A DNA stretch of 53,269 bases from contig NW_014040124.1 in NCBI RefSeq assembly GCF_001186125.1, positions 14,710 through 67,978 on the forward strand. Reading direction: 5' to 3'. The notes under the pieces were generated by a model. It was given only the letters and a program-made list of their open reading frames with translations, was not told the origin of the DNA and did no database searches. The translations under genes were made by a program, and so were the position numbers. The stretch is from Sphaeroforma arctica JP610. Its lineage: Eukaryota. This document shows positions 8,421 through 50,090 of the stretch, one piece after another; positions within the stretch are counted from its first letter, which is position 1, and each line of letters opens with the position of its first letter.

Positions 8421-8550
8421 TCTTTATTCTTATAATTCTTAAATTGTACTTATAACAAAATAAATAAATACTAGCTACTGACTATTTCTTATTCCGTAGC
8501 TTTCCCTACAATTACTAATAAAGTAACAACTTCTTATGGTAAGTTAAAAA

Positions 8551-11369: not shown

Positions 11370-11770
11370 AGCTCTTATCTTTGCGACCAATGTGACACCC
11401 CATGGGGTCTTGCCACAAGCCTTCTTGCCCTCTTTTAAAAAAGTGTTGTTTGTGTTTTCCACTAGCTTCGGGTCATCTTCTAGTAGAAACAAGAGCTTTG
11501 GAAACTACGAGGCATTGGGGTAATATGGTACACATATCGTGATACTGGTTACCTCTTTAATGACTTTGTCAAGGACATCAGGTATGGGTTCCCATGGTGG
11601 GTTCGCCCATGCATTCGCTTCCTGCGCCCACTTTTGTTGTAGCGCATTCTGTTCTTTGGTGTGGTATTTATCTGCGTGTGCATTGTATGCCAATGCAAAC
11701 AGATCTACTGTGAACTTCCCAACCTTCGTTCCGCTTCTTGATAGAATCTGGGATGTAACATTCAATATAT
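11370..11770 (-). pseudogene. Dam-like amino-methyltransferase domain within family B pol
   Basis: GKFTVDLFALAYNAHADKYHTKEQNALQQKWAQEANAWANPPWEPIPDVLDKVIKEVTSITICVPYYP...TFLKEGKKACGKTPWGVTLVAKI. Confidence 0.88.
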
Positions 11771-14598
11771 AACCGATATGGTTAAGTGCATGTCTGTTTC
11801 CAAGGTGGTGTACTCTTGGCTATTATGTGATGCCTCATTCGCTTTTTGTATTACTTTTGACTCTTTTGTACTAAAAGTATCTTCTTGGAGACGCGATAAT
11901 ATGTCTGCCATCTGGTTGTCCTTGCCTGGGACATGTATGATGGGGAAATGGTGGTGGAACGTTTTCGCTATCCATTTGGCCAGCATTGGATGTGACGTCT
12001 GTTGACTGTTCATTTGCGTGAGTGCTTTGTGATCTGTTCACAGTGTTATGTCCCCCCTTTAATGTATTCGGTGAAATATTCCAGGCTGAATACCAGTGCT
12101 AGTAGCTCTCTGGTATTTGTGCCATAGCGTTATTGTGCTGGGTTCAAGCCTTTTGAGAAGTAGAGAATGTCGTTTCTAACCCCATCGATGACTTGAAATA
12201 AACACTCTCCTATGCCATAGCCACTAGCATCGTTCATAATTTGAAACGGTACCCCATGGACAGGGTATGCTAGCGTCTTTGAACAGGCGATGGCTTCTTT
12301 GAGTTCTTCCCACTTCTTTATTAGTTCCGGAGTCCATAACATGTATATGTTCTGGTTCATTTTTCCTTTCATTACGTTCCGAAAGTGTTTCGTTGTGTGA
12401 GCAAAGTTGGGGACATGGTCTCGCATGTAATTTGCTAGTCCCACTGCTTTGTGCAGATACCTTTTTGTTCTGGGTAGTGGCTAATCCATCATTCTTTTCT
12501 GTTTCTCAGGGTCTGCTTTGAGTCCAAGTGTGGTGACTTTCACCCCAAGAATGTTGACCACTTTGACCGCAAAGGCGCACTTGTTGTGATTAAGTCGGAA
12601 GTTTGCGCTATTCAGTCGCTTGATTACTTCACGAACTGTCTTGCGGTGTTCTTCTTCTGTAAGACTCACAATGACTATGTCAACTACATACACTTGCACT
12701 CCTTTGATATCTATGAACAGATTCGCCATGACTCTCTGGAATTGTGCTGTGAGTGATTGTAGTCCAAACGGCGCGGACTTGAATGAGTATTGCGCTCATC
12801 TCCACGAGAATATGAAGAAATGTTGGCTTGCTTCGTCTACTAAGAAGCGGTGAAATCCTCCTGTAAGATCTAGCTTTGAAAAGAACTATGCCCCTTGTAG
12901 GTTGTGTAAAACTTCTTTATTTTCGGTAACACGAACTTGTCTTGCTGATATTGATGATTGATCTCACGTAAGTCTAGACATGTCCTTACTTTCTTGAGGA
13001 GACCCGTTTGGTCATGTTCACCTGTTGATAACATGAGTAGGCTCACCGTTGTGGGCGTGTCGCGTTTGTATATGTGACCATCTTTAAGCCATCGTTGCAC
13101 ATTCTCATCCGTTTGCGGAATGTATTTGTGCGGAACAAAGTTGACTTTAGCGTGCCTCATTTGTCTGACGTTGGTTTCATTTGCAGGTGCTGTGACTGTG
13201 GAGCCTGGTAGGTTGCAATGAACATCAGGAGGTATATTCGCATTGGTATTCAGGAGGTCTGTAAGCGACTCTCTGAAACCTTCTTGTTCATGCTCTGGGT
13301 CCTCTCCATGTGGTGTGAGGAGCGATTCCCATTTTGCATCTGTTGGTATAAGTGGATTGATTAACCCTGTTATGTATATGGTCTTCCTCCATACATAGTT
13401 AATGTCACAAACTTCTGTTGAATCAGTGCGTTGTATTCTTGCATCTGTTTGTGCTAGTTGTATATACCCCTGTTGTACTCTAACAGAAAGATATAGTTCT
13501 GATACTACACTTTTGTCCATGCATGAGCGTTGTGCACCCTAGTTTACTAGTGCATTATATGTATTGCCATTGATTTGTATGTCAATGTGTAAACGTTGGT
13601 CTCGTGGTGCGGGAAGTAAAGATAAAGGTTGGTAATTTGTATCATTTGCATTTATTAACAACGTTTCCTCATCTGTAAATAAAATGAGTCTATCAGCCAG
13701 GTCAATCATGTTTGCTTCCGACCACCAGTGTTTTCAGCCTTCATCACCTTCTGTGATGTCTTCCACCTTGCCAGATGTAATGGACAGTCTTGCTATCTGT
13801 ACATCTTTCTTGGCTCGCTCCTCAGCCTGCTTGACTTGATTTGCTTTCTTCTTGGGACATTTACTGAACCGATGTGGGGATGGCATTACCAGGCAGTATA
13901 TGCATGCACGCTCTTCACATGCCCCTTTCTTCTCCTGTGCCTGTCCCCCTGTAGGATTGTGGTTGTTTGTACCATTGTCTGTTTTGTACCGTTTGTTAGC
14001 ATTGGTAGTATTAGCCTCTGCTGGTGTGGTAGTCTGTGCGTTGTTAAGCTTGTTTGCTGCTCACACCTGATCCCTCAACATACGCTCTGCTTGTGTTAAG
14101 TCGCCGTTTTTATGTGTGTCTCAGTCGTAGTATGAAACTTGGTGTGGTCTAAGTCGGACAAGTGTCCTTCACTCCCATCCGGTTGCTTATATCCTTTAAT
14201 TAGAGTATCCACAACTGATTGCAATCCATAGTACTTAAGTGCTAGGTACCTTTGTACCTTTAGGATTTGGAAGTGTATGGGTTCCTTATCCGAGCTGCGG
14301 TAACGCTCCTATAACATCGCCATTGACTTGTGCACACGCTCTATACGCACTTCGACGTCCATCTTCTTATTCTGCATGTCATTGAAAACCTTCTCCAATA
14401 GATAGTCTACTGAGTGTGATCTGAGTCGATCAATAATGATTCTATTGCACTGCTCAGGATCAATGAAGTGCCTAGTTGCACGTGTCTCAGAATCTCTTGT
14501 TATTGAGTACTGATTTGGTCTTCTCCGTTGCATCAGTAAAATCCAATAGGCTTTGCACTAGTGCTGGGTATTGACACAGAGGCATTGACTTAGCTAAG

Positions 14599-14790
14599 AA
14601 TATATATATATATATATATATAAACACGCACACACACACACACACAAGCACGCGCGCGCACACACACAAGCACGTACACACACACGCGCTCACACAGACA
14701 CACACACAAACACACACACACACACACACGCACACACGCTCACACACACACACNNNNNNNNNNNNNNNNNNNNCACACACACACACAAAC
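14599..14790. repeat. (TA)n/(CA)n microsatellite spanning an assembly gap
   Basis: Visible dinucleotide runs and Ns. Confidence 0.95.
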
Positions 14791-14796
14791 ACTTAC

Positions 14797-15254: not shown

Positions 15255-15452
15255 TGTTAGGCAAATGTAAACTGATAAGAAGTAATTTTATTTGGCCTTC
15301 CTACTGAGGGTCTTATATGATTCTACCGCTTAGGGCGGGAACCTAATTTGCCATGGTGTCATATTTCTGATGACACCTTTCAGTTCATGTACCGAACTGT
15401 ATATATTCTGATGATTTCACAACTGCTGGTTTGTATATTATAATGTCCAACA
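15255..15452 (-). repeat. Copia 3' LTR, 198 bp, preceded by polypurine tract AGGGGAG
   Basis: TGTT...AACA ends; ctcccct at 15453-15459; 15352-15452 repeated at 27102-27202. Confidence 0.85.
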
Positions 15453-15504
15453 CTCCCCTGGAAAAAGTAGATGTGGAATCGAGAGAATGCAACCTTATGC
15501 TATC

Positions 15505-18207
15505 TTAATCTCCCCTGGATTGGTTCTCGCAAACACTCTCGGGCTCGGGCGGAGCTTCGCGCAGTAATGCGTTAGTGTGTCGCGAGTGTGTAGGATGTGC
15601 AGCGTTTCTGGTTAGTATATCGGCTTGATTATCTGCCGAAGGAGCATATTCCACCTTGATGATCCCATGGTCTTGAAGTTCTTGAATATATTTAACGCGT
15701 ACGTCAATGTGCTTCAGGTGTTTGGTGGGCCCAGTGGATGCTATCGCATGGATGGTGGATTTGTTATCACACTGGAGAACTGTTGGGGATTGTTGGGGAA
15801 AACCGAGCTTTGTGAGCATATTGCGAAGCCATTGGATAGACTTTGCGGCCTCAGATGCAGTGAAGTACTCAGATTCCGCGGAACTGGTCGAGATGGTTTT
15901 CTGCCGATGTGATTTCCATGCGACGGGTATCTGGTTGATCCGAAGGATATATCCAGTTGTTGATCGACAAATATCAGGGCAAGCCGCATAATCAGCGTCA
16001 GATACAGCATCAGCGATAGGTGGGCCTGTAAGATACTTGTAGGTAAGTCCAAGGGGTGGTGTACCCTTTAAGTATCGGAGTATCCGTTGGACAGCTATCC
16101 AATGTTGCTGTGATGTATTGTCCATATATCTCGCCAGTGTGTTGAGCGCGTAGCTGATGTCGATACGGTTCAGAACCGTTAGATATTGTAAAGTGCCGAT
16201 CAGTTCACGGTCTGCACGCATGTGTCGTGGTCCTGTGCTTTTCGTTATTGGGACTTGTATTGCTGGTGTCGGTGTAGGATAACTCTCGGCGAGGTCAAAA
16301 GTGTCTAAAGCTTCTTTGTTATAGCTTTCTCGGAGGCTAATAGAGTCTGGTGTAGTTAGTATGCGGATTCCTAGTAGCCATCGCGGTTCCCCAAGATCCT
16401 TGCAACTGAATTCAGCATGTATCAGTGATCGGAAGTGGTCGACGTCGGACTTGTATTGCCCGCATATTATAAGGTCGTCCATATAGAGTAATACTACGCA
16501 TTTCAAATCGTTGCTGTCAGCAATAAACACACTCATCGCTAGCAAATTGACGGAACCCCATGTCGAGTAGTTTAGACTTGATGAGAGCATGCAATAACCG
16601 TCCAGATTGTTTCAAACCATACAAAAATTTCTTGAGTTTTAGGATACAGTCAGCTGGAATGCCCATTGCGTCCGTTCCCGGTGGTGGCTTCATGTAAATT
16701 GGCTCGTCGAGGGCCGCGTATAAGTAGGCTGTATCCACGTCCATTTGTGCTACATGCCAACCCTGAGAGGCAGCAACGGCGAGCAATGTGCGCAATGTCT
16801 CGTGACGGCAGGTAGGTGCGTATGTCTCACTGAAGTTGATACCTTTGGTTGTGTAAAACCACGTGCGCATAGTCTAGACTTATATTTGTCAACAATGCCG
16901 TCGATGAGCGTATCGTTAAATACCCATTAACTGGATACTATAAAGGCGTCATCCGGGACCTCGTCGGGCCGTAGGAGGTCGTATGTCTCTTTTTCTGCGA
17001 GGCTGTCGAGTTTCCGTTGTATTGGAGCACGCCACAAATCTGCATCCGCACCTTTCAGTGCAGTTCGGATGGTAGTCGAGGTAAGTGGGTGTTCTTGGAT
17101 TTTCACACAGGCGCTGTAAATGTAGTGAACAGTGTCGTTGTATATTTGTTGTTGCTTGGCAATGTCCTCTTTACTAGGCTCAGGGGTGGACGATGGTGGT
17201 GTGAGGTTGATGGGAATGTTGATGTCATCTGATTCATCATCGTGGTCGAGAGTCTGTAGCGTAGCCGGTTGGTGTAGCGCTGATATGGATTTGTTCGTAC
17301 TAGAGCGGGTATGTTGTAGTGCATACCGACAGTATTGTTTATTGGCAGCGTTTTGGCGTTTGGCCCGTTTCGAGTTTGCGAGTGCGCGGAGGTACTTTTG
17401 GCGGAGGGTTTCCACTTTGACGGATACGTCTTGAGGTAAGTTGGGGTTCTCTGTGTTCTTCTGAACGGTGAGTATGCCGCTGTTCTCCAAGTCACGTGCC
17501 CAGGAGATTCGTTTGGTGTTCGTGCTCGGAAGTGTTCCATGCTCCCCTGGAAGGAGGGAGTATGAACATGGTTGAAATTAGAGATAGCGTGGGTATCACT
17601 GGCAGTGGTCGCCTCTGGAAGAGTGCTTGGAGGGGCTGCTGGTGTAGCAGCAGTGGTGTGCTCCCCTTGAAGCTGTGTTGTAGTGTGTCCCATGTTGTGT
17701 GGTGATGGAGCTGAAGATGTTGTGTCCATGGTAGTATTTGTTGAACACGTCCCTGGAATAGAGGTATCGCCAGCAGGTTGATCCTCGGCACCGTGTTTGT
17801 TTGCAGTGTTATAGGATTGTATTTGACGGGCGCGTTGTCTCGTCATCTGCATTTTGTTAGGTAGATGCGGTTCATTGAACGTGCCCGTATTTTGCCGAGG
17901 TTCAAGTGAGAGACCGCGAAAGGCGCGGGATTCAGGATGTCGGGCAATGTGGGTTTGTAAAGTGTTGTTAATAGCGTCTTTCATGCCTGGTATCGCGGTT
18001 GATGGTGCTTGTGCAGTCGATGCAGTGTCGGGAGTAGGTAGGAGCGTACGTGGCGTAGCGTGTGTGGTTGGTGTAGACAGAAGGGCGTTTTGAGCAGGGA
18101 GAGGATCCTGGTGTGTATCAGCTGGGATGGCGACATCGTCTGTCTGTGTGCCAACCGAGGAATAGGTAGGTGTTTGTGTTTCGCATGTAGTGTCTTGATT
18201 GGGTTGT
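15505..18207 (-). pseudogene. Copia linker, reverse transcriptase and RNase H
   Basis: ETYAP, QMDVDTAYL, LYGLKQSGR, LLYMDDL, KDLG, SDADYA, RSTTGY, SSAESEY, CDNKS, KHIDVR, NQADILT. Confidence 0.96.
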
Positions 18208-19030
18208 TGTAAGATTCGGTCTAATAAAGGCGATACTAATGCCTTAGAATAAATAAACGCGTAGGTAAATTTTAAATATCATGTGAATATCGATATAAAT
18301 AAACGAAATGAGACGTTTAATAAAGTTGGGTTTGCGTCGTAAAAACAGCAATACTCTGAGGGATTGTGAGGCTGAGACATTGCCTATATATAATCCTCTC
18401 AGTACTGTTTCCGCCGAAGGAATTTTATTTAGTGTTTCGTTGTCGTTCTATTCTGGGGCGAATCCGATAGACTCATAAAATTCTATCTTTAGAAAAAATA
18501 AAATAAAGATAAAAATACTCATGACGTCTTTAGTTATTGTCTTAACCAATAACTTGCCACTATCAAGAATTACCGACTTAGCCTTCATCAGACTGGCACA
18601 TCTGGTTGGCTTATCAGAGGATCAACTAGGTAACGTTAATAGTCCCTAGAAACCTATATTCGGTTGAGCCATCTCGCTACCGAAGTATTCAGATATAAAT
18701 GAAATTGGAAAGTAAATAAAGCTTTATTAATAGAACTACACCAACTCTTTTATGTTTGATATTTTACTGAGGTCTTTTAACGGCCTCATCCAAATATCTG
18801 ATATGTTAAATGGAAAAGGTTTAATTAATAAAACCATTAAAACCCATTTTAGGAAACTTAAGTTCCTCGTGCTATTAAGAGCACATTTAGAAGACTTAAA
18901 TTCCTCGTACTATTAAGAGTACATTTAGGAAACTTAAGTTCCTCGTACTATTAAGAGTACGTTTATAATTTGCGTACTACTTAAGAGTACAATTATACGT
19001 AAGTCTAATTTGGAGGCCCGGCTTATTACC
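18208..19030 (-). mobile_element. Solo LTR of Gypsy family C inserted in Copia pol
   Basis: Reverse complement of 40987-41769; TTGT on both sides (18204-18207, 19031-19034); removal fuses ORF 18977-19201 in frame to ORF 17103-17984 (MALQ-PNQD...MKDA). Confidence 0.92.
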
Positions 19031-19686
19031 TTGTAACGCCATAGTCAGCTCACGGATTGTTGGTACGTCTTTTGTGTCTGTGGCAAAGTGTGGAACGGGT
19101 GTGTTCCCGACCATGGTCCATGTCGGAAAGACGCGGTAAGAATTTAACGTCTCTAGAGTGACATATTTTATCTGTCTTGAGGTTAAGTATTCGGCACTCA
19201 TCGTAATATTTTGATTGACAGTCGTGACCTAGGTATACCCCAATATTGGCGCGATCGTCCAGTTTGCCAGTGCGTGACTGATTGATGAATGCTACTTGAC
19301 ATCCAAAGGGGTGCATGTTCTTAATGCGGTCAGTTGGTTTAAACCCCCAGAACACTTCCCAAGAGGATTTTTGGTCTCTGTTGTGTTTGTTGTTGTGGAC
19401 AGAGTTCTTGAAAGCTGCGTATTGGATAGCTTCGGCCCCCATGTTGTCGGGCATATTGGCTTGCTTCATATCGCTGAGCATGATGTCATGTATGACACCA
19501 TTTGCACGCTCGACTAAGCCATATAATGCAGGCGTTGCAGTGGGCACGTAGAGTATTTTTACATGTTTCTGCGTGTTCACCTTGTTGAATTCTTGAGAGA
19601 TGAATTCCCCGCCACGGTCACATTTGAGTTCGCGTAACTGTGCAAGTTTATCCTTCCCGATTTCAATGTAGAATTGATCAAGTGCG
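19031..19686 (-). pseudogene. Copia integrase core and SH3-like region, N-terminally truncated
   Basis: CDRGGEF, TPALYGLVERAN, PFGC, GKLDDRA, YLGH, SRDVKF. Confidence 0.95.
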
Positions 19687-22600
19687 TGTAAGTTTCGGTC
19701 GATCAAGGCGATATTAACGCCTTAGAAATAAACGCTTAAGTTAGGTCTAATTATATTAATGTATCAAAATAAATAAACGAAATGAGTCTTTTAGTAAAGT
19801 TAGGTATGCCTCGTGAAAACAGCAATACTCTGAGGGATTGTGAGGCTGAGACATTGCCTATATATAATCCTCTCAGTACTGTTTTCGCCGAAGGGATATT
19901 ATTTAGTGTTTCGTTGTCGCTCTATTAGAAACTATGGTATGTTTCGTTGGGACGAATCCGAGAGACTCATAAAACCCTATCTTTAAGAAAAAAAGAAAAA
20001 GAGAAAAAGAAAAAAAAATACTTTTGATGTCCTCAGTTATTGCATTAACCAATAACTTGCCACTTATCAAGAATTACCGACTAGCCTTCATCAGACTGGC
20101 ACATCTGGTTGGCTGAACGGAGGATAAACTAAGCAACACCAATAGTCCCTAGAACCCTATGCTCGGTTGAGCCATCTCGTTACCGAAGTATTCAGATATA
20201 AATAGATTTGGAAAGTAAATATAGTTCTTTTAATAGAACTAGACCAAATCTTATATTTGGTATTTTACCGGGGCCTTTTAATGGCCTTGTCCAAATATCT
20301 GATATGTAAAATGGAAAAGGTATTTAATTAAAAAAAACCGTTGAAAACCATTTTAGGAAACTTAAGTTCCTCGTACTATTAAGAGTACGTTTATATGTTT
20401 ACGTACTATTAAGAGTACGTTTATTACAAGATTCTAACGTGACACAGCCCTCATCCAGCTTTGAGACCCAAGAGAAGCAAGTTGCTTACTCAAGCTGATT
20501 ATAAGTCATAAAATCGAGAAAGGAAAACGGGTCGAAACACTAAGTAGCATAACGTATAGTTAATGTTTCTCAGGCGGAGACGTGAAGCGTCCTCGGTTAC
20601 CCTGTGAGTTTTTGGCTTAGGTCCAGTAGGTCCGTGGTGGTCGACTGGCCGTTTATTGCGCTTCAATGACTTTAGGACATACGAAGGATGAGCATTAAAG
20701 CTCGGGATAAATGCTGTAGACGAGTAAGTTTAAACTTCCGTGCCTTCAGACGATGGAAACATGCTATCTCTTTCAGCTTGTGACTTATGTAGGCGTTTAC
20801 GCCATTTTCTATTACAGGCTTTTAAATAGTCTTGATTGTCAAAAGCGTCTGAAGTTAATTCAGCGATTGTACCGTCTATAAAGCGAGTATGATAGTATGT
20901 ATATCCTCCTTTATCCGTTCTCCATATAATGTCTTTAAATTCGGAGCGGTCAAGAGGGGCATTTGAATCATATCTTCTTGCGAAGATAATATCGGTAGTC
21001 GGAATCCGACTAGTGCCTATATTTAAAGCACTAGAACCGTCTGGGTTATTCAACTCGTAGGTTCCACTTTTAGCGTCAGTACAGAGATTATATATGATCC
21101 TATCCATTTTGATGTTAATACAGTAGCATCGGAATTACGTTGACGGATGTCAACTCTGTCTCCCAGCTGACACTCTGCTATCTTTTTGGTGGCGTTCCAT
21201 CTATTTTGTCTTTTTAATAAGGCAATATTGCGTGATTCTCGCAAGCAAGAATATACAACGTTATAAATACGTTGTACCTTCTCAAACCATGGTAACTCAT
21301 AGTGTTCAGGTTCGTCCTTGTTAAAAGGTATTTGTAACTCACTATATCTGCCACGAAAATAGTGAGCGGGTGTTGTTCCTGTAACCGGATCAACACACTC
21401 GTTCACCTGTGTTTGTAGCCACTTAAGGTGGTACGGCCAATCATCTGCATCATCCGTTAATGCAGTACGTAAGAAGAACTTATTTTTCCGTGGCGCGTTT
21501 TATTAGCGCCTTGTGTTTGCGGTTTATATGGTACACCCCTTTTATGGCACATACCTGATACGAGTACTAACGATTCCAATACGTCATCGCAAAACTCGCT
21601 ACCGTTATCAGTGCACATTATACCCGGCCACCCGTGGTCAGCAAAGACTAATTCTGCCACGGTCTGCGTACTCTTGTCCTTTAATGGATAGAACAAGTTA
21701 AACCGTGACGCCACATCAAAGAAGTGGCATACGTAACGGTCGCCTGTGTGCTCGGACGTAGGCAGGTCAACCAGATCAATGATGACCCTGCGCCATGGAA
21801 CATCTTCAGTCACACTCTTAAGCGGTGCGAACCCATAGCACTTAATCTGGTTGAGATCACAGTCTGTACATGACTGATATACTCTGTCAACTAAAGTTGC
21901 CAGCTTAGGGTGCGCGATCCCATTTCGCTTAGCATCTTTAAGTGCGTCTACTACGTTCTGGTGCTTCAGCTTATGGTTTTGCGTCAGCCAAGCAATCATG
22001 TTTTTATCATTCTGCTCCTCCAGAATAAAGGTAGGGTGTTGAGAATCCACTTGCGTGGTCTCTGAGTCTGTAGTGTTTCCATACTCCTGTCTTTCGTTCG
22101 CATGAGTGTCATAAGTACGATCATTTGCGTTTGATACACCTGACTTATTTAATAGTCGCATTATATGTGTATATACTTCGGGATTATCTTTCATTAGTTC
22201 ATTTCGAAATAGTGTCTGAAAGACTCCGGGCTTGGACTTTGTTATTAAACAGAGTCCTAGCTAGAGACTGACGCTTTTTAACAGTGTCATTAGTAGATTG
22301 TATTTCTTGTGCATAGACTTCAAGTGCTGTGTTGCCTTTGAACTGCTTAACGTTCAATCTAGTGGAGAGTGGAATCTCCGATTCTTTGACCTTGTTAAAG
22401 AAGGTCTCAGAAGGGGTCCATTTAGTTGTTCCAATGGGACCTATACGACATATTATAGTATGTATCCAGGACGTCTTCTGGACGGCTCGGGTATCCTGAT
22501 ATAGGAAAGTATCTACTTCCCTATCTAAATATATTGGCTCGCATCGTATCATGCTTATTTATTTATTGAGCCATGGATCTTTACTCCGTAATGGGCAACA

Positions 22601-35280: not shown

Positions 35281-36532
35281 GCTCTGATCATCTTCTCCGC
35301 TCCTGATATAAATATATTCGTGTGAGTAAAAATGTGTTGATATATTCGAGCTGGTTGATTGTCAAAAGCTGAAAGATATCAAATACAAGGAACCAAGGGT
35401 GACTGCCACCCTTTATATAACATAATAGACATTGCAATATAATGAAAAATCATCAATATTCGTCAAAACTAAAAAACCTGGGTAACCGTGATAGCTACCA
35501 CTATTAATCAATTGGTATAAAAACACTATTGTCGTCACATTAAAGATCCCAAATAAAGACAGTATGGAACTCGAAATGCTATGACAAATTTGTCAAAAGC
35601 AGTATTGATTTATAGTATTCACGGATATTCCAGCGAACAAAAAGGCAAAAATGCAAACACTAAAGCGAACTCCATGCTCGGTTAAGGCGTACAATATCAA
35701 TATCTCCATACATGCCAAGTACTTACAACTCGGTGTGCAGGCGGACTCCTCACAGTTAGCTTTCCGAACATAAAATTTACAGTGTAGACTACCCATTCAC
35801 TACACTGCAATACATCGCTGCTTTTCTATAATCTCTGTCAACAGTATGTAAATAGCGCATAAATTATTAAATCAAAACGATATGTACATCTTTACACTGC
35901 GCAGTTAGTTAGTATCCATCAAATATATTTATGCACATAATATTTATATAAAATGATGTTAAAGAATACGAATTCACTTGTATTACGATGACCCATTTTG
36001 GCGTATGAACGAGAGAACTCTGAAGCGCATCCAATTCCGCTTACCTGCTAATTTGCAGATCATTATGACACGACAATTGACAACTTCCATTTTTCTTGGT
36101 GGCCGAAACGACGGTAGAGGAGCTTATTGACGAGCCTGAATCAAGTAGATCACCTTCTGTAAAGAAGGTGATACTCGTTGCTGGTGCAGGCAGGATCGAC
36201 TTAGTTCCCTCGAAACCGATTTTCTCTAAACTCATTACGGCTTGCGTCTGTGCGCCGTGCGGCTGGATTGCAAATCGCACAAATTGTAAATAGCTTTGTA
36301 CTGGACTGATCTGAAAATGTATAAACTCCATTTTTTAGTATAAAATATGTTTGCGAATAGGCTATTTATTTTAGTACATATTTATTTATAATGTACATAT
36401 GAATACGTTTTTTTTAAAGAAATCACAAACAAACAAAAAACTCTCTCTCTCTATTTAGTCATGGCAAATAGAACTTTCTACTCTCTATATATTGTAGCTA
36501 CTCTAGAGAGAGAGTAGAGAGAGAGAGTCTTA

Positions 36533-40986: not shown

Positions 40987-41769
40987 TGTAATTTGCCGGG
41001 CCTCCACATTAGACTCTATGTATAAACGTACTCTTAAGCAGTACGCAAATTATAAACGTACTCATAATAGTACGAGGAACTTAAGCCTCCTAAATGTTCT
41101 CAATAGCACGCGGAACTTAAGTTTCCTAAAATGGTTTTTAATGGTTTTATTTATTAAACCTTTTCCATTCAATATATCAGATATTTGGATGAGGCCATTA
41201 AAAGGCCTCAGTAAAATACCAAACATAAAAGAGCTGGTCTAGTTCTATTAATAGAGCTTTATTTACTTTCCAATTTTATTTATATCTGAATACTTCGGTA
41301 GCGAGATGGCTCAACCGAATATAGGTTTCTAGGGACTATTAACGTTACCTAGTTGATCCTCTGATAAGCCAACCAGATGTGCCAGTCTGATGAAGGCTAA
41401 GTTGGTAATTCTTGATAGTGGCAAGTTATTGGTTAAGACAATAACTAAAGACGTCATGAGTATTTTTATCTTTATTTTAATTTTTCTAAAGATAGAATTT
41501 TATGAGTCTATCGGATTCGCCCCAGAATAGAGCGACAACGAAACACTAAATAAAATCCCTTCGGCGGAAACAGTACGAGAGGAGTATATATAGGCAATGT
41601 CTCAGCCTCACAATCCCTCAGAGTATTGCTGTTTTCACGAGGCAAACCTAACTTCATTAAACGTCTCATTTCGTTTATTTATATCGATATTTACACGATA
41701 TATAGAATTTACCTACGCGTTTATTTATTCTAAGGCATTAGTATCGCCGTTATTAGACCGGATCTTACA
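40987..41769 (+). repeat. Family C 5' LTR
   Basis: TGTAA...TTACA ends; homologous to three other copies; TATATATA box near 41586. Confidence 0.92.
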
Positions 41770-44700
41770 CATTTTAAAGTTAGCAAAAGTATTAATTACT
41801 TAGACTACTTAAGCGTAAAGGTAAGTTAACTACCACAACATTTTTTTTCTCTCCTGTCTAAGCTAGTCGTTAAGAGACAAGCTAGTAGTCATAAGTTAAG
41901 ATTATGACCAAGAAAGACAACACCCTTCTAATAAACGTAGAGCTGTAAAGAAGAAGATGGAGAGAGAAGTCGCTAACGCTGCCACAGCTATTACTGCTGC
42001 GCAAGCCACCGACGCCGCTGATGATGCATTTATGCGCACTGTAGCCAAAGCACTTGCCTCTGACAATTATAGTCAAAAGAACAATGCTTCAGATAAGGAA
42101 GTAGCCACTCCGCTTAAGGAGACTACTCCTACTGACAGAGCCCGAGGGCCAACTATTGCCTCAACTTCAAAGCTTGCATTTACGAAGCCAAGAAGTGAGA
42201 CAAGGGACACGTCTCAAGACGACCCAGCCAATTCTTCTGACCAAACTCAGAAAGAAAAGTTCCCAATTATGAGGGCGTCCCCAATTATAGGGGACAAGGA
42301 CAAATCTCAGAAGGAACCTATAATGGAACCAGAAGAGGAGGCAAGCTCAAGTAGCAAAACCGAATCTACGTCCGAGACTTCTAAGCCGAAGCTCATAAGT
42401 AAATTAATTACTAAATACGCTGATCTTATGAATCAGTTAGCTACTATTATGAAAGACTTGACTGTCGAGCATGTAGATCAATTAGAAAGATCAGGAAAAC
42501 ATACACAGCGCTTACGCGAGCATGTTTCCCCGGGCATTACTGAAACCCTACAGAAGTGGACAGAACGTCGACAGGCAATTACGCCCAAAGACTCAAGCTC
42601 GACACCTGAGTCATATGATCCTGAGATGCACAGCGTCGATATACCGTACGAGGCATTCCTGCCAGAAGAACAGGATAATCATTCGCCTGTTCTGACACCT
42701 GGTCGTGAGTCACCTGTCCTCAACGGTATTATAGACCGAGAGGTAAGGAAATATACTCCGCCACTTGTACCCAATTGGGAGGACAATCGTCGGAAACCAG
42801 TTAAGACTGGGTACTTTATTCCGACGCCAAGGGATATTAATCATCCCCGCAGACGTGTGAACGATATCGAGTTTAATCGCTTCGACCGCACGGCTTTACA
42901 CCAACCCGCAGAGGATTTCCACTCTGACGAGGTGACCGACCTTAATAAATCGGTCGACGACTATACCAATAAAATGGAAGTCGCCCATGCTGCGCATCCT
43001 GCTATTGACGTAGCATACTATGCGAATATTATTGCGATTAAGCAAAAGCGCATAGACCAATTACTTCAGGCCCAACGTGGATAAGACCACAGGGACAACC
43101 AGAAGTACAAAGGACAGATCAGTCGACTTAAGTCGAACTGGAATGCCAACAGCAAGCAGGTCGAGTTTATAAACAACCATGACCTCGACACGCTAACCCG
43201 TACGCTTAATGCGTTTACGGTCATGCTGGAGACGAATGATATCGCTCCCCAGCAATGGATCTCTGCTTTAATGCAGACGTTTGACCCTACAGGTACAAGT
43301 TATTTGATCCTGCAGCGACACCAACATGAGCTAGACACTTGTCGTGACTGACCAGCTGTGTGTTGGTTGGTCACATCCTTGTTAAGTAAGGATATACGTA
43401 GCCCTGGGCTGAGTTCAATTTTAAATGAGCCAGCCGAGAACACGCCCATTCATAGTTATATTCTGAAGTTAGATGCTGACTTGAAACGTCCCGATATAAC
43501 AAAGGACAAGGCACATCGATAATACGAATTCCTGGTTATGCACGTGTTCTGTAAGAACATAGGGAATAACGACCATGAGAGTCTGTACACCGAGTTGCGA
43601 CGTAAACACGCGACTGAGGCTCAAGACAAGGGACATGAAACAAAGTTTTATCTATCCCGTCTTACATGGGAACAGTTTTATGATACTGTATCCACTCTTT
43701 TTCTCGCACATGCGGGAGCTCACCGATCCCTGGTACGTATCCAGGCAGACCTCAAACGAGAGACCCCAAATTACACGTGCTCGCGAATCCATTTTCACAA
43801 CGCGACCCAATAAACGGGCACGCGCAGGAGCGAAGGACATGGAACCTCCATTTAAGGAGATTAAGAAATGTGCCGACGCACAGTGTGGGTATGACATGTA
43901 CCAGTTAACCCCTAACGGTTATTGGAATGGCAGGCATGCATCCACCTGTACATATTTTCTTACTAAGTGTGACAAGTGTGAGAAGACCAATAGTTATCAC
44001 ACTAAGTCTTGTGACCGAAAGCCCAACATTAAGTTGGAGTGACTGTACTACCAGGTACAATCGTTACACAAACGATACAACGACTCTTTAGATGAGCGTG
44101 TAATCATTCCTGTATACTGCAATGGAAATAAAATCCTTGCGTTGATTGATCCTGGTTCAGAAATTTCATGTATATCCGATCGCTTTGCATTAATGAAAGA
44201 TATCGAAAGGAGAACACAAACAACTCACCTCATTTTAGCTGATGACAAAAATTCTAAGTGTGGTACCATGGGCACAGATGTTAAATCTCCCTGGCCGATG
44301 ATAGGAGTATCACTACTCAAGCTGTGATAGTTAAGATGTCACAGAAGTACGACATTATAGTCGGAATGAGTGATTTACTCACTCTAGGTATAACCGTAAC
44401 TGGTCTACCAAATAACATAGATCCATTAAAGGATCAATCAGACGATAACTGTCTGAATCCATATAGGCCCCCGTCAGACACAGTCAAGGCATCAATACCT
44501 GACTTTGCGGACAAAATCATGGATCTGATTCTTGTTAATAAGAAAATAAAGATCACAGATTGGGCAAAATTCCGCTTCAACGACGGATATGTCAACCTTG
44601 ACTTAACCAAGGTAGACTTTACACAGTTAAAGTGTCCCTCAAGGAACTATGTATCCTGGAGACACGAGGCTGTTGTAAAAGAACAAGTTGAGAAGTGGCT

Positions 44701-45934
44701 AGCAGATGGTGTGATAGAAATTAACTATCAACAAACGCCAGTTAACTTGGTACTGCTAGCTGTAGACCAACATAGCTCTGACGGATCGTTTAAGAAAGTC
44801 AGAGTATGTTTAGATATGAGTCCAATAAATAAATTATTGCCGACTCATAGCTTTCACTTACCTCGTATTAACGAGCTACTGCGAAGGATGGAAGGTGCTA
44901 CAGTATTTACAACTATAGACCTTACACAAGGATATCATCAAATGCAGGTATATGAACCACGTCGTAAATACTTTAGTTTTACGTGGAAAGGTAAACAATA
45001 CAGGTTCAGAGGTGCACCTTTCGGGTTACACTCTTTACCAGCATTCTTCCAACAAGTAATGTAAGAAATATTTGCAGACATGCCTAACGTGCAAGTCTAC
45101 ATAGATGACATAGTCATCTTTTCCAAAACTAATGGCGAACACGCCGCATTAGTCAGACGAGTCCTTAAGAGACTCAATGAGCAAAACTTCAAGATTAACG
45201 AGAAGAAATGCCACTTCGCAATGAGCGAAATACAGCTCTTAGGCTACCATATATCTGGGGAAGGTATTAAGATCGACCCCGGTAAGGTAGAACACCTGTT
45301 AGATTGGCGAACACCAACTACAGGAAGAGATGTTAACAGCATGTGTGGGTTTGTAAACTTCTTTTCAGATGGAGTACCACACTTAGTTGACTACCTTAAA
45401 CCTTTTGGACACTTAAGATGTCATAAAGGCAAACTAGGAGACTTGTGGACTAAAGAGTGTGATGACGCATTTAAAGCGCTCAAACACGCAGTCCAACAAG
45501 CCTCTGTTGTACAAGGACCAGTCGATGGCGTGCCGTTTGAAATAGCAACGGATGCCTCCGACTTAGCCTTAGAAGGAGTATTATATCAGGCTATAGATAA
45601 CAAACCTAGATATATACAATTCTTTAGTCGAGCAATGAATGCTTCACAGTTGAATTACCCAACTGTTAAACAAGAGCTATTAGCCATAGTGGCAGCTCTA
45701 ACACACTTCCGAGACTACTTATACGGAACAGCATTTACGCTGATGTGTGATCAGAAATCTCTTCAATATATGAAGGAGATGAAACCCGACTCGCAATTAC
45801 TGAGTCGCTGGCATGATAAAATATCAAAGTTCCATTTTGATATAAAACATCTGCCAGGAATACATAACCATTTTCCAGATATGTTATCACGCTTCGTACC
45901 GGACTTTAATAAATCGGTACGTGAGTTACTAGCC

Positions 45935-46350
45935 ACTGACTGGAAGTGTAATCCCAGGTGGTTTGAACTGGCTCAAAAGATATTTGGGCCACATAACATA
46001 GATATGTTTGCTGCACATCATAATGCACAACTATCGAATTAAAGGACTTTAGATCATCCTTTGGGAGACGCCTTTTAAATAGACCTCTCCAAACATAATG
46101 CGTGGGCTAATCCACCATGGCAGTTAATTGCCCAGCTATTAAATTATGTTCATATACATAAAGCTACCATCACGTTGTGTTGCCCATTACGGAGTAAGAT
46201 CCATGGCTCAATAAATTGATCAGCATGATACAATGCGAGCCAATATATTTAGATAGGGAAGTAGATACTTTCCTATATCAGGGTACCCGAGCCGTCCAGA
46301 AGACGCCCTGGAGATATACTATAATATGTCGTATAGGTCCCATTGGAACA
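45935..46350 (+). pseudogene. Dam-like amino-methyltransferase domain, family C second copy
   Basis: DWKCNPRWFELAQKIFGPHNIDMFAAHHNAQL in frame with RT and RNase H (ORF 45080-46042), then AWANPPWQLI and QKTPWRYTIICRIGP. Confidence 0.88.
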
Positions 46351-48296
46351 ACCAAATGAACCCCTTCTGAGACCTTCCATAACAAGGTCAAAGAATCAGA
46401 GATTACACTCTCTACCCAATTGAACGTTAAGCAGTTCAAAGGCAACACATCACTTGAAGTCTGTGCGCAAGAAATACAATCTACTAATGACACTACTATT
46501 AAGAAGCGTCAGTCTCTAGCTAGGACTCTGTTTAATAACATAAAGTCCAAGCCCGAGGTCTTTCAACCTCTATTTCTAAAGGGATTAATGAAAGACAATC
46601 CTGAAGCGTATACAAATATAATGCGACTATTTAATAAGTCAGGTGTATCTAACGCACATGAGCGCACTTATGACACTCATGCGAAAGCAGGACAGGAGTC
46701 TGGAAACACTACAGACTTAGAAACCACGCAAGTAGATTCTCAACACCCTACCTCTATTCTGGAGGAGCAGAATGATGAAAACATTCTTGCTTGGCTGACG
46801 CAAAACCATAAGCTGAAGCACCAGAACGTAGTAGACGGACTTAAAGATGCTAAGCGAAATGGGATCGCGCACCCTAAGCTGGCAACTTTAGTTGACAGAG
46901 TATATCAGTCATGTACAGACTGTGATCTCAATCAGATCAAGCGCTATGGGTTCGCACCGCTTAAGAGTGTGACTGAAGATGTTCCATGGTGCAGGGCCAT
47001 CATTGATCTGGTTGACCTGCCCACGTCCGAGCACACAGGCGACCGTTACGTATGCCACTTCTTTGATGTGGCGTCATGGTTTTACTTGCTCTATCCATTA
47101 AAGACAAGAGTACGTAGACCGTGGCAGAATTAGTCTTTGCTGACCACGGGTGGCCGGGTATAATGTGCACTGATAACGGTAGTGAGTTCTGAGATGACGT
47201 TATGGAATCGCTAGTACTCGTATCAGGCATATGCCATATGAGAGGTGTGCCATATAAGCCGCAAACGCAAGGCGCGAATGAAACGCGCCATAGAAGACTT
47301 AAGTTCTTCTTGCGTACTGCATTAACGGATGATGCAGATGATTGGCCGTACCACCTTAAGTGGGTACAAACACAGATGAACGAGTGTGCTAATCCGGTTA
47401 CAGGAACTACATCCGCTCACTATTTTCGTGGCAGATATAGCGAGTTACAAATCCCTTTTAACAAGGACGAACCCGATCACCATGAGCTACCATGGTTAGA
47501 GAAGGTACAACGTATTTATAACGTTGTATATCCGTGCTTGCGAGAAATACGCAATATAGCCTTATTAAAAAGGCAAAAGCGTTGGAACACTACCAAGAAG
47601 ATAGCAGAGTATCAGGTTGGTGACAGAGTTAACATCCGTCAACGTAATTCCGATACTACTGTATTAACATCTAAATGGATAGGTCCATACATAATCTCTG
47701 TAGCAGACACTAAAAGTGGAACGTACGAGGTAAATAACCCCGATGGTTATAGTGCGCTTAATATAGGCACAAGTCGTATTCCGACTACAGAGATTATACT
47801 CGCAAGAAGACATGACTCTAATGCCCCTCTTGATCGTTCTGACATTATATGAAGAACGGATAAGGGAGGCTATACATACTNNNNNNNNNNNNNNNNNNNN
47901 ATAATCAAGACTATTTAAAAGCCTTTAATCGAAAATGACGTAAGCGCCTGCATAAGTCACAAGCTGAAAAAGATAGCATGTTTCCATCGTCTGAAGGCAC
48001 GGAAGTTGAAACTTATCCGCATACAGCATTTATCCCGGGCTTTAATGCTCATCCTTCATATGTGCTTAAGACACTGAAGCGTAAGGAACGTCCAGTCGAC
48101 CACCACGGATCTACTGGACCTAAACCCAAAACTCACAGGGTAACCGAGAACGCTTAACTTCTCCGCCTGAGAAACATTAACTATATGTTATGCTACTTAA
48201 TGTTTTCGACCCGTTTTTCCTTTCTCGCTTTTTGACCCATAATCAGCTTGAGAGAGCAACTTGCTTCTCATGGGTCTCAAAGCTGGGTGGGCGCTG

Positions 48297-49052
48297 TGTA
48301 ATAGCCGGGCCTCCACATTAGACTCATGTTATAAACGTACTCGTTAGCAGTACGTAAAATATAAACGTACTCTTAATAGTACGAGGAACTTAAGTTTCCT
48401 AAATGGGTTTTAATGGTTTTTTTTTAATTAATACCTTTTCCATTTTACATATCAGATATTTGGACGAAGCCATTGAAAGGCCCCAGTAAAATACCAAACA
48501 TAAGAGTTGGTCTAGTTCTATTAATAGAATTTCCAACTTTGTTTATGTCTGAATACTTCGGTAGCGAGATGGCTCAACCGAATATAGGCTTCTAGGGACT
48601 ATTAACGTTACCTAGTTAATCCTCCGATCAGCCAACCAGATGTGCCAGTCTGATGAAGGCTAAGTCGGTAATTCTTGATAAGTGGCAAGTTATTGGTTAA
48701 GACAATAACTAAGGACATCAAGAGTACTTTTTTAAATTTTAAATTTTTTCTAAAGATAGATTTTATGAGTCTCTCAGATTCGCCCCAATGAAATATACCA
48801 TGGTTTCTAATAGAGCGACAACGAAACACTAAATAAAATTCCTTCGGCGGAAACAGTACTGAGAGGATTATATATAGGCAATGTCTCAGCCTCACAATCC
48901 CTCAGAGTATTGCTGTTTTCACGAGACATACCTAACTTTACTAACAGTCTCATTTCGTTTATTTACTTTGATATTTTCACGATACTTCGAATTTACCTAC
49001 GCGTTTATTTACTCTAAGGCGTTAATATCGTCTTAATAGACCGAATCTTACA
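48297..49052 (+). repeat. Family C 3' LTR
   Basis: TGTAA...TTACA ends; follows the same 3' untranslated region as 20445-20730. Confidence 0.92.
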
Positions 49053-49059
49053 ACCACGA

Positions 49060-50090
49060 GAATCAGGCGAAGATAATCGACTGGCCAACCCCACAACCAA
49101 ACTACCTCCACGAATACCTGCCAATTTTTCGCACTCATAGTAACGCTTTTGTAAACTCAAGCCGAACGAAATGATCGGTGACCGATGGGAGCAACGGCCC
49201 GCGGATGCATGGCAGGCAACAAAACACGCGGTGGTCCAAGCGGTAGCCTTCCCCTTTCCGGCCGAAGGGGTACCACTGAACTTAGAAACCAACGCAAGCG
49301 ATTACGGGCTGGGGGGAGCACTGTTCCAATGGGTCGATGGGAAGAAACATTACTTAATATTCTTCAGTAAGACGTTGAACCATGCGTAGCAAAACTACGC
49401 GACACCAATGATAGAAAAGTACTAGCACTGGTGCACGGGTTGACACACTTCAGAGACCATCACGACTACCAACGGTTTGCAGTCTTCACAAACCATAAAG
49501 CATTAGTATACATGAACACTCAGCTTAAAATCAACTCGATACTGCAATAGTGGCACCATATCATCGCACCATTCAATTTTACTATATCACACATACATAA
49601 TGTATTACCAGACATACTGAACAGGGTGCATGAATAACAGCGGGGAGCGACGAGCCCGAAATATTTTACACGGACTGTTGGCTACTATTTCCCAGTAAAT
49701 TCGATCAAGATCAACAACACTTCGGACCGAATAACGTAGACGTATTCGCGAATCCTGCCGCCGCCCAGCTAACTCGGGTTTGGACGAAGGATGACGGTGA
49801 AGGAGTGTCTTCGCGCAAAACCCACCATGGAAGAAGATGCAGAAGATGCTTCGAAAGATATAAGCAGAAGGAGCAAGTGCAACAGTATGCATACCTCGGG
49901 TACCGAGAGTGCCGTGGTTTGACTTGTTCAAGGAGTTGTTACAGTCAGAACTAGTGTTAGTGCCACGAACACCGCAAACGTTTCTAAAATATGCTAAGTA
50001 CGCATGTGGTAAGACGCCATGGAAGCACACCGTGGTAGCAAGAGTAGGTCCAGCCAATTGTTACAAGCTAGACCCTCTATTCTCACAATG
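49060..50090 (+). pseudogene. Family A Gypsy fragment: RNase H and MTase
   Basis: TNASDYGLGGALFQ; FGPNNVDVFANP; NPPWKKM...ATVCIP...PWFDLF...YACGKTPWKHTVVARVGP; homologous to about 1935-2920. Confidence 0.9.

What the first reader, a model, noticed from the sequence alone, without database searches (positions are those of the whole stretch)
11370..50055. The MTase domain is conserved across three divergent Gypsy families with NPPW intact in all five copies
Seen: copies at 1970-2340, 11370-11770, 22420-22835, 45935-46350 and 49670-50055 share D-x-[F/L]-A, NA or AA-Q, NPPW and a C-terminal [G/Q]KT[P/S]W motif, although the families have unalignable gags. Inference: an old, selected domain defining a clade of methyltransferase-encoding LTR retrotransposons, possibly marking their own DNA with 6mA or 4mC to affect expression, silencing or autointegration.
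Basis: partly seen in the sequence, partly recalled or inferred. Interest (0 to 1): 0.9.

Follow-up and report, generated by a model that had tools for sequence, protein, structure and literature searches.

The report
Adenine methyltransferase in Gypsy and Copia
These are dead copies of jumping genes, likely from the protist Sphaeroforma, carrying a conserved adenine-methyltransferase domain: the five Gypsy copies match a kind described in a 2026 preprint, while a sixth copy lies in a Copia element whose relatives hold the domain inside the integrase zinc finger, where it would likely mark the element's own new DNA.

Summary
Observation confirmed. Five decayed Ty3/Gypsy copies (three families) carry a Dam-type (PF05869) domain between RNase H and integrase. 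NPPW is present in 5 of 5 (0.1 expected by chance), though every copy is broken by stops or frameshifts. The domain evolved under purifying selection (dN/dS 0.21 in family B; pN/pS 0.19 in family A, equal to RT/RNase H). This is already known: a May 2026 preprint describes these DAM-LTRs, including in Sphaeroforma arctica, the likely host lineage here. It found 6mA enrichment on them but no activity in E. coli.

Nine S. arctica proteins are related to it. One shows, and three more support, the domain inserted between the His-His and Cys-Cys halves of the integrase zinc finger. I found no report of a Copia-borne Dam. That placement ties the enzyme to integrase. A predicted model is closest to PCIF1 and KsgA/Erm RNA adenine methyltransferases, roughly tied with DNA enzymes. 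Best guess: it marks nascent cDNA with 6mA; RNA-acting or binding-only roles remain open.

The parts
1028..8769 (-). Gypsy element A1: 3' LTR 1028-1219, 5' LTR 8551-8769, gag 4269-6182, protease 3819-4268, RT-RNase H 2400-3407, integrase core 1256-1800 (C-terminal part missing)
   Evidence: LTRs 92.6% identical ungapped, TG..CA ends (both termini of the 3' copy changed by one base), poly-G tract next to the 3' LTR, matching 4-bp flanks; Pfam gag-asp_proteas, RVT_1, RT_RNaseH, Integrase_H2C2, rve
1961..2339 (-). Dam-type domain of A1, frameshifted shortly after NPPW
   Evidence: Pfam Dam E 1.7e-9, in the same frame as RNase H; TIGR01712 E 8e-7, phrog_111 E 3e-7
9833..14480 (-). Gypsy element C (no LTR pair found): gag remnant, protease, RT-RNase H, Dam, integrase, chromodomain-like tail 9833-10042
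   Evidence: tblastn to A1/B1 domains; rve E 0.014, Asp_protease E 0.019; the tail has no Pfam hit and its only 2 PDB hits are cpSRP43 at E 1.9; no LTR partner
11367..11770 (-). Dam-type domain of C, one stop, frameshift ahead of motif I
   Evidence: Pfam Dam E 3.9e-12; read with X at stops
19687..26285 (-). Gypsy element B2, 5'-truncated, nested in the Copia element; 3' LTR 19687-20424
   Evidence: inverted match to B1; B-family contigs leave the window at 26285
22412..22825 (-). Dam-type domain of B2, one stop
   Evidence: Pfam Dam E 2.5e-5; summed contig depth as high as the flanking pol bins in 4 of 4 runs, so family-wide
40987..49052 (+). Gypsy element B1: LTRs 40987-41769 and 48297-49052, gag, protease, RT-RNase H, Dam, integrase
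   Evidence: LTRs 92.0% identical ungapped; flanks do not form a target duplication; Pfam RVT_1, RT_RNaseH
45935..46356 (+). Dam-type domain of B1, two stops and a frameshift
   Evidence: starts in the open RT-RNase H frame 45065-46042; Pfam Dam E 2.3e-4
49053..50088 (+). Gypsy fragment A2 (RT end, RNase H, Dam 49634-50064 with a frameshift and a stop)
   Evidence: 67% nucleotide match to A1; 74% amino-acid identity to the A1 Dam over 111 codons
15349..27201 (-). Ty1/Copia element: short LTRs 15349-15452 and 27102-27201, protease, Dam, [B2 insertion plus deletion], integrase core and SH3 19050-19685, [solo B LTR], RT-RNase H 15505-16873; gag missing
   Evidence: LTRs 96% identical over 100 bp with a purine tract before the 3' copy; RVT_2 E 1.2e-25 and 6e-9, SH3_retrovirus E 1.9e-12; SARC_07328 matches both the protease-Dam piece (50%) and the integrase piece (68%)
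26339..26698 (-). Sixth Dam-type domain, in the Copia element, in frame behind the protease (26750-27100); two stops; motif IV reads NISF
   Evidence: HMM from the five Gypsy copies: 21.3 bits, E 8.5e-6, profile positions 3-122 of 141, best of 20 shuffles 8.0 bits; Pfam Dam only E 0.06-0.11; the upstream part hits only retroviral proteases in PDB, E 0.008 and 1.6
18208..19029 (-). Solo LTR of family B inside the Copia element
   Evidence: 90% to the B1 5' LTR; matching 4-bp flanks if one terminal base is changed; a contig joint 18199-19032 skipping it in 4 of 4 runs

Best explanation
The five copies are decayed Ty3/Gypsy retrotransposons with a Dam-type N6-adenine methyltransferase domain between RNase H and integrase, and a sixth copy sits in a Ty1/Copia element; the domain likely travels with integrase and likely puts 6mA on the element's own nascent cDNA. 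SHOWN: domain identity, position, purifying selection, and the Copia copy with relatives that place the domain between the His-His and Cys-Cys halves of the integrase zinc finger. FROM THE LITERATURE: DAM-LTR insertions in S. arctica carry more 6mA and are more expressed than other LTR elements. INFERRED: the host is Sphaeroforma or a close relative. In Copia the domain could not be cut away without splitting the zinc finger, so it would stay part of mature integrase, be packaged in the particle, and meet single-stranded or hybrid cDNA and then the pre-integration complex. Marks on ApT would be kept by host AMT1 after insertion, giving new copies open chromatin. The Gypsy domain is assumed to work the same way. 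Identity of the elements about 0.9; this mechanism about 0.45.
For: Motifs and Pfam/TIGR/PHROG hits. Selection: B Dam dN/dS 0.21 (pN/pS 0.23, 95% 0.08-0.46, 132 codons); A Dam pN/pS 0.19 (0.13-0.28, 111 codons) versus 0.19 for RT/RNase H. Between families Dam identity is 32-45% and RT-RNase H 36-43%. Copia: 9 of 9 hits among 1.84 billion representatives are S. arctica proteins on contigs of nine different lengths. SARC_09551 has H-x4-H at 155, motif I at 211, motif IV at 250 and C-x2-C at 355; SARC_07328 and SARC_01068 have H-x4-H just before the domain; SARC_05500 has C-x2-C just after it and then the integrase core. An AlphaFold2 model of SARC_09551 (pLDDT 62-94 by block over residues 191-350) matches class I adenine-N6 methyltransferases: PCIF1 Z 8.7, rmsd 3.4, 134 aligned; KsgA/Dim1/Erm Z 8.0-8.6; M.TaqI 7.5; E. 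coli Dam 7.3. Atlas structure neighbours include RT-RNase H-Dam clusters, TM 0.58-0.65. The preprint reports 6mA and expression enrichment and proposes the same AMT1 hand-over model.
Against: No activity has been shown: the preprint's E. coli expression of DIRS, LTR and adintovirus DAMs raised no 6mA, and Iyer et al. 2016 judged DIRS MTase domains likely inactive. The top structural neighbours are RNA enzymes, though Z gaps of about 1 are near a tie. Motif IV in the Copia copies is NIPF, NPIW, NQP, NILS or NISF, never NPP[WFY]. No copy in the window is intact. In the window's Copia copy the His-His half is absent and B2 plus a deletion separate Dam from the integrase core, so the zinc-finger placement rests on SARC gene models whose DNA I could not see; only 1 of 9 shows both halves. 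Pfam gag_pre-integrs hits are weak (E 0.06, 0.16). The C-x2-C region of the model has pLDDT under 50, so closure of the finger is not shown. dN/dS is noisy: the B integrase N-terminus gives 0.84 on few changes, and dS runs from 0.06 to 0.80 along B. ApT is not enriched in the elements (observed/expected 0.97-1.09). The host is inferred, not named by any search on the window itself.
Confidence: 0.6

Rival explanations
1. The domain is a catalytically dead or weak binding module that tethers integrase, for example to 6mA-marked open chromatin, to adenine-rich nucleic acid or to RNA polymerase II, and steers insertion rather than writing marks.
For: Negative E. coli assay in the preprint; Iyer et al. 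2016 call DIRS domains likely inactive PCIF1 mimics; non-canonical motif IV in all Copia copies seen; placement on integrase suits a targeting role; 6mA enrichment could follow from where elements insert.
Against: NPPW is kept in three Gypsy families only 32-45% identical in this domain, and the motif I Asp is kept in Gypsy and Copia alike; Erm and KsgA enzymes are active with N-[IL]-P-Y (recalled, from no call).
Confidence: 0.25
2. The domain is an RNA adenine methyltransferase acting on the element's genomic RNA, its cap-adjacent adenosine or the primer, to aid stability, translation, packaging or escape from RNA surveillance.
For: Best structural matches are PCIF1/CAPAM (Foldseek E 4.7e-4; Z 8.7) and KsgA/Dim1/Erm; Iyer et al. 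place DIRS MTases in the PCIF1 clade; it would explain no 6mA on E. coli DNA.
Against: Sequence profiles are phage DNA methylases (PF05869, TIGR01712, phrog_111); DNA enzymes score only about 1.2-1.5 Z lower; the preprint sees DNA 6mA enrichment; fusion to integrase suits a DNA step.
Confidence: 0.2
3. It methylates cDNA, but to block autointegration or shield cDNA from host nucleases or deaminases before insertion, with no role in later expression.
For: The integrase-embedded position puts it with free cDNA; anti-restriction is the usual role of phage solitary methylases (established knowledge).
Against: The preprint links DAM-LTRs to AMT1-encoding hosts (9 of 13) and to higher expression in two ichthyosporeans; nothing here tests autointegration.
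Confidence: 0.1
4. The Copia-Dam link is accidental: a Gypsy or DIRS Dam fragment nested in a Copia remnant, joined by assembly or by gene-prediction error.
For: The window is a nest of insertions; the copy abuts B2; SARC models can splice unrelated pieces; no DNA for the SARC loci was seen.
Against: Protease and Dam share one frame in the window and in SARC_07328, SARC_01068, SARC_09551 and SARC_00770. Zero-difference contigs 26421-26728 and 26701-27002 tile the piece. Copia Dams form their own group (UFBoot 94) apart from the Gypsy ones (88) and are only 11-27% identical to them in the window copy. Two divergent Copia families, 22-28% identical in Dam, share the same position.
Confidence: 0.07

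Closest known systems
Ichthyosporean DAM-LTR lineage (Pirum, Abeoforma, Sphaeroforma arctica), bioRxiv 10.64898/2026.05.21.726589 (whole main text read; figures and supplements not seen)
   Same: Ty3/Gypsy organisation with a Dam domain in pol, Asn-Pro-Pro motif, likely the same host lineage; the paper also describes DAM between RT and integrase in its Chloro-Ochrophyta clade.
   Different: The paper reports DIRS, Ty3/Gypsy and one hepadnavirus-like host for DAM and never mentions Copia or Ty1 (0 occurrences). It says this lineage lacks chromodomains, whereas family C has a weak chromodomain-like tail (inconclusive). It compares the domain with E. coli/T4 Dam, whereas the model here is closest to PCIF1 and KsgA/Erm.
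DIRS1-like retrotransposon MT domain (PF05869), PMC3783388 passages; Iyer et al. 2016, PMC4738411 passages
   Same: Same Pfam family, directly after RNase H in the Gypsy copies; Atlas structure neighbours include RT-RNase H-Dam clusters.
   Different: These elements have an aspartic protease, a DDE integrase and direct LTRs, and no tyrosine recombinase was found.
PCIF1/CAPAM and KsgA/Dim1/Erm RNA adenine-N6 methyltransferases
   Same: Best structural matches of the Copia Dam model (Z 8.0-8.7, 123-134 aligned).
   Different: 9-14% sequence identity; the domain is about 140 aa and shows no WW or helical partner domain; substrate untested.
Phage N-6-adenine methyltransferases (TIGR01712, phrog_111)
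   Same: Profile hits over the N-terminal half, E 1e-11 to 1e-2.
   Different: All scores are far below the TIGR01712 cut-off (39 versus 97 bits); embedded in a polyprotein.
Retrotransposon-borne C5 DNMTs (de Mendoza et al. 2018, PMC5890265 passages)
   Same: A DNA methyltransferase captured into pol.
   Different: Different enzyme class; that paper states Symbiodinium Copia elements lack any DNMT.

Membership tests
Ty3/Gypsy LTR retrotransposon (A, B, C) | pol order protease-RT-RNase H-integrase | tested here: met
   Pfam and tblastn order in A1, B1, B2, C
Ty3/Gypsy LTR retrotransposon (A, B, C) | direct LTRs with TG..CA ends, polypurine tract, short target duplication | tested here: met
   All present for A1; B1 has both LTRs but unmatched flanks; the solo B LTR has 4-bp flanks; none found for C
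Ty3/Gypsy LTR retrotransposon (A, B, C) | HHCC zinc finger plus DDE integrase core | tested here: met
   HHCC pattern in A1, C, B1, B2; rve E 5e-6 (B2), 1.9e-5 (A1), 0.014 (C), all under the curated cut-off
DAM-LTR, ichthyosporean lineage | Dam (PF05869) domain in the pol of a Gypsy element | tested here: met
   4 of 5 copies hit PF05869, 2 above cut-off; A2 is 74% identical to A1
DAM-LTR, ichthyosporean lineage | ichthyosporean host | tested here: inconclusive
   Likely: 9 of 9 relatives of the Copia piece are S. arctica proteins at 31-57% identity; no window protein was found by exact look-up (0 of 10); no genome held
DAM-LTR, ichthyosporean lineage | no chromodomain | tested here: inconclusive
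   No Pfam Chromo hit in C or B tails; the C tail's only PDB hits are cpSRP43 at E 1.9; the B tail gives one unrelated hit
DAM-LTR, ichthyosporean lineage | placement in the paper's DAM and RT trees; raised 6mA on insertions | not testable with these tools
DIRS/Ngaro retrotransposon | tyrosine recombinase; no aspartic protease; no DDE integrase | tested here: not met
   Protease and rve present; no Phage_integrase hit in the 31 frames and no match to a recombinase pattern in six frames
Ty1/Copia LTR retrotransposon (sixth copy) | RVT_2-type RT and order protease-integrase-RT-RNase H | tested here: met
   RVT_2 E 1.2e-25, SH3 E 1.9e-12, integrase upstream of RT; SARC_07328 and SARC_05500 bridge Dam and this integrase
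Ty1/Copia LTR retrotransposon (sixth copy) | Copia-type protease and GAG-pre-integrase zinc finger | tested here: inconclusive
   No Pfam hit for the protease, only weak retroviral protease hits; gag_pre-integrs E 0.06-0.16 in two relatives; H-x4-H and C-x2-C-x2-GK patterns found; reading these as Copia signatures is recalled knowledge
Ty1/Copia LTR retrotransposon (sixth copy) | gag, primer-binding site and 5-bp target duplication | tested here: inconclusive
   The 5' LTR abuts the protease and has lost its end bases, so gag and primer site are deleted; flanks do not match
N6-adenine (amino) methyltransferase | motif IV [DNS]PP[YFW] | tested here: met
   NPPW in 5 of 5 Gypsy copies; only variants in the 5 Copia sequences that reach it
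N6-adenine (amino) methyltransferase | class I Rossmann-type fold | tested here: met
   SARC_09551 model, 8 chains at Z>=8 of 48,161 on the whole-model count, with the top ten rows all SAM-dependent methyltransferases; the Gypsy B2 model was too poor to tell (pLDDT 52, no Z>=5)
N6-adenine (amino) methyltransferase | SAM binding and methyl transfer | not testable with these tools
   Needs biochemistry; the published E. coli test on related DAMs was negative
N4-cytosine methyltransferase | Ser at the first position of motif IV | tested here: not met
   Asn in all copies; criterion from PMC4738411 passage

The most novel reading that the evidence does not exclude
Sphaeroforma harbours an undescribed class of Ty1/Copia elements, at least two divergent families, in which an adenine methyltransferase is spliced into the integrase zinc finger. 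This makes a single integrase-methyltransferase enzyme that marks cDNA or target DNA during integration. It would be the first Copia DAM-LTR, a further independent capture in the same genome as the Gypsy DAM-LTRs, and direct architectural evidence that retroelement Dam acts in the pre-integration complex.
Probability: 0.45. Interest if true: 0.78.

Novelty: new variant of a known kind. Interest (0 to 1): 0.57.

Why it matters
What retrotransposon Dam domains do has been open for about two decades, and the one heterologous test of LTR-borne ones failed. A Copia family with the domain inside the integrase zinc finger says which protein carries it and so which substrates to test: cDNA ends, hybrids and target DNA, assayed as an integrase fusion. 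It also shows that screens keyed on RVT_1 and a strict Pfam threshold miss DAM-carrying elements, so the capture is more recurrent than published. The Gypsy part on its own only adds family-level selection numbers to a known kind.

Tried and rejected
Word-based protein searches found nothing for the A1 Dam or the Copia integrase; both are weak negatives. Metagenome scans with the Copia piece and the B Dam and viral scans found no relative; three alignments had no stretch conserved enough to scan with. PDB sequence searches gave only chance Chk1 hits for the Dam profile and nothing for SARC_09551. The B2 model was poor and its fold searches uninformative. An IQ-TREE run timed out and was replaced by FastTree. 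No RNA holder was listed, so expression was not examined. A closer read of other copies of the Copia Dam region was not obtained, so their motif IV and a Copia dN/dS stay open. DIRS/Ngaro identity was rejected (protease, DDE integrase, direct LTRs); the swapped-looking repeats around A1 resolved into ordinary LTRs plus an outer 112-bp repeat. N4-cytosine specificity was rejected on motif IV. The direction of transfer between Gypsy, Copia and DIRS could not be tested: the Dam tree has no outgroup. Atlas gave no answer for the host ORF or SARC_05500. Earlier-finding look-ups by place and sequence were empty.

Full report
1. Observation. A six-frame scan finds NPPW at 2165, 11603, 22669 (minus) and 46109, 49819 (plus), each followed 150-190 bp later by [G/Q]KT[P/S]W. 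Codon-shuffled windows give 0.105 NPPW on average and at most 1 in 200. Pfam Dam PF05869 hits 4 of the 5 copies, two above the curated cut-off. The domain lies after RNase H, in its frame in A1 and B1, and before the HHCC zinc finger in A1, C, B2 and B1. Every copy has stops or frameshifts. Gags of different families do not align (0 of 5 cross-family pairs at E<=0.01).

2. Elements. A1 is a whole decayed element with LTRs 92.6% alike, a poly-G tract and matching 4-bp flanks. B1 has 780-bp LTRs 92.0% alike but unmatched flanks; B2 is a 5'-truncated relative; C has no LTR pair; A2 and D are fragments. Protease and DDE integrase are present and no tyrosine recombinase was found, so these are Ty3/Gypsy and not DIRS. 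Contigs of four runs cover the B2 Dam as deeply as the neighbouring pol bins, so the domain is family-wide.

3. Selection and phylogeny. B1 versus B2: Dam dN/dS 0.21 (pN/pS 0.23, bootstrap 0.08-0.46, 132 codons); RT 0.06 and 0.16, RNase H 0.12, integrase core 0.20, gag 0.44, linker 0.42, integrase N-terminus 0.84 on few changes. A1 versus A2: synonymous sites are saturated; pN/pS is 0.19 for Dam (111 codons) and 0.19 for RT/RNase H (143 codons). Codons with stops or gaps and locally poor columns were dropped. A FastTree RT-RNase H tree with 85 of the 111 proteins (those with at least 170 aligned columns) groups A, B, C, D and P0002 at support 0.85, inside a clade at 0.997 that includes Rhizopus and Lichtheimia elements. 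The four relatives checked that span RNase H to integrase have no Dam between them, and the Gypsy-Dam profile scores no better than E 0.68 among the 111. This fits one capture in the ancestor of A, B and C, with moderate support.

4. What is known. bioRxiv 10.64898/2026.05.21.726589 (May 2026; whole main text read; figures and supplements not seen) describes DAM-LTRs in five lineages, one of them ichthyosporean (Pirum, Abeoforma, S. arctica). It reports more 6mA and more expression on these insertions, an association with host AMT1 (9 of 13 species), and no 6mA gain when DAMs were expressed in dam-minus E. coli. DIRS-borne Dam is older knowledge (passages of PMC3783388, PMC5890265, PMC6338049). 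Iyer et al. 2016 (passages) place it in the PCIF1 clade and think it inactive. PMC12695648 (passages) shows AMT1-linked 6mA on expressed genes in ichthyosporeans. The finding as written is therefore a member of a described kind.

5. The sixth copy. A profile built from the five Gypsy copies alone finds one more domain at 26339-26698 (21.3 bits, E 8.5e-6, 120 of 141 positions; best of 20 shuffles 8.0 bits). It follows in frame a stretch whose only PDB hits are retroviral proteases. It lies between a 100-bp LTR pair that also encloses an integrase core, an SH3 domain and an RVT_2 RT-RNase H, the Copia order. B2 plus a deletion separate it from the integrase core. A search of 1.84 billion representatives with this piece gave 9 hits; 9 of 9 are Sphaeroforma arctica proteins, which makes that lineage the likely host. 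SARC_07328 matches both the window's protease-Dam piece (50% over 161) and its integrase piece (68% over 62); SARC_05500 matches the Dam C-terminal half (58%) and the integrase (68%). Among the relatives, H-x4-H precedes the domain in three (a fourth has a variant with Ser for Gly), C-x2-C-x2-GK follows it in two, and SARC_09551 has both. The domain therefore appears inserted inside the integrase HHCC finger. SARC_09551 and SARC_00770 look like a second family, whose Dam is 22-28% identical to the first. In an unrooted tree the Gypsy Dams group at 88 and the first Copia family at 94; the direction of transfer is untested. Limits: these are gene models whose DNA I did not see, only one shows both halves, and the window copy lacks the His half.

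6. Is the Copia form in print? The preprint has no occurrence of copia, Ty1 or RVT_2. Searches combining Copia, integrase, adenine methyltransferase, Dam, PF05869, Pseudoviridae and Sphaeroforma (listings only) showed no such report. The library lacks most subscription journals and Repbase Reports, and the preprint's unseen supplements may list these proteins among its 46% orphan DAMs. Its screen used E<1e-5 and RVT_1 or recombinase context; the Copia Dams score E 1e-5 to 5e-3 against Pfam and have RVT_2, so they would likely be missed (inference). Earlier AI notes from this scan mention Copia elements with cytosine-type domains ahead of integrase in other genomes; these are unchecked, concern a different enzyme class, and are not support.

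7. Structure. The B2 model was poor (pLDDT 52). The SARC_09551 model is good over the domain (block pLDDT 62-94). Foldseek ranks PCIF1/CAPAM (E 4.7e-4) and KsgA first. VIA-align gives PCIF1 Z 8.7 (rmsd 3.4, 134 aligned), KsgA/Dim1/Erm 8.0-8.6, M.TaqI 7.5, E. coli Dam 7.3 and T4 Dam 7.2. These Z values are middling and close together: they support an adenine-N6 methyltransferase fold and keep an RNA substrate open, without deciding it. The model does not show the zinc finger closing, since its Cys half is under pLDDT 50. Motif IV in the Copia copies departs from NPP[WFY].

8. Mechanism. Shown: a selected amino-methyltransferase domain placed just before integrase in Gypsy and inside it in Copia relatives. 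Inferred: it stays on integrase after processing, enters the particle, and methylates adenine in nascent cDNA or hybrid; AMT1 then keeps the mark and the new copy sits in open chromatin (about 0.45). Rivals: a binding or targeting module without catalysis (0.25), an RNA methyltransferase (0.2), protection of free cDNA (0.1). The Copia link being an artefact is about 0.07.

9. Verdict. The Gypsy DAM-LTRs are already known; the Copia DAM-LTR with the domain inside the integrase zinc finger is a new variant as far as my searches reach. Interest 0.57.

Noticed in passing
window 26750-27100 (-); P0116, P0117, P0122: The Copia protease's expected catalytic Asp position reads Asn in three SARC relatives and the Asp is absent in the window copy; decay or an odd protease.
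   Followed up: no
window 9833-10042 (-) and 20778-20990 (-): Chromodomain-like tails after integrase in families C and B; only a weak cpSRP43 hit for C.
   Followed up: partly
window 41770-48296 versus 20425-26285: Synonymous divergence between B1 and B2 runs from 0.06 to 0.80 along pol, suggesting recombinant subfamilies.
   Followed up: no
window 40987-50088: B1's flanks do not form a target duplication and the 5' half of A2 is not on B1's left, so B1 is probably a recombinant of two insertions or borders a deletion.
   Followed up: partly
window 18208-26285: Family B has summed contig depth two to three orders of magnitude above the Copia part in 4 of 4 runs: very high copy, though depth is no copy number.
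   Followed up: no
window 46360-46800 and 21975-22400: Family B has about 695 bp from NPPW to the integrase zinc finger, versus 363-376 bp in A and C: an extra linker, less constrained (dN/dS 0.42).
   Followed up: partly
window 8520-8550 and 41770-41800: No TGG-type primer-binding site follows the 5' LTR of A1 or B1; both have a T-run then AA, so priming may be unusual.
   Followed up: no
window 1024-1027, 8770-8773 and 18204-18207: The 4-bp flanks of A1 and of the solo B LTR are the same word on opposite strands (2 of 2 measurable cases; too few to call a preference).
   Followed up: no
window 791-901 and 8963-9074: A 112-bp direct repeat (94%) lies outside both A1 LTRs; origin unexplained.
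   Followed up: no
window 10883-11192 and 51190-51375: Tandem duplications of 155 bp in the C integrase and 93 bp in fragment D.
   Followed up: no
window 50968-52232 (+): Gypsy fragment D (protease-RT, 63-67% to B) ends before the Dam position.
   Followed up: yes
window 31514-32014 and 34633-35361 (-): Probable host exons among TA/CA microsatellites: a hydrophobic ORF and one that looks RGS-like by eye (recalled resemblance; no meaningful Pfam hit).
   Followed up: partly
window 27202-27400: A further high-copy repeat seems to begin beyond the Copia 5' LTR (depth of the last bin).
   Followed up: no
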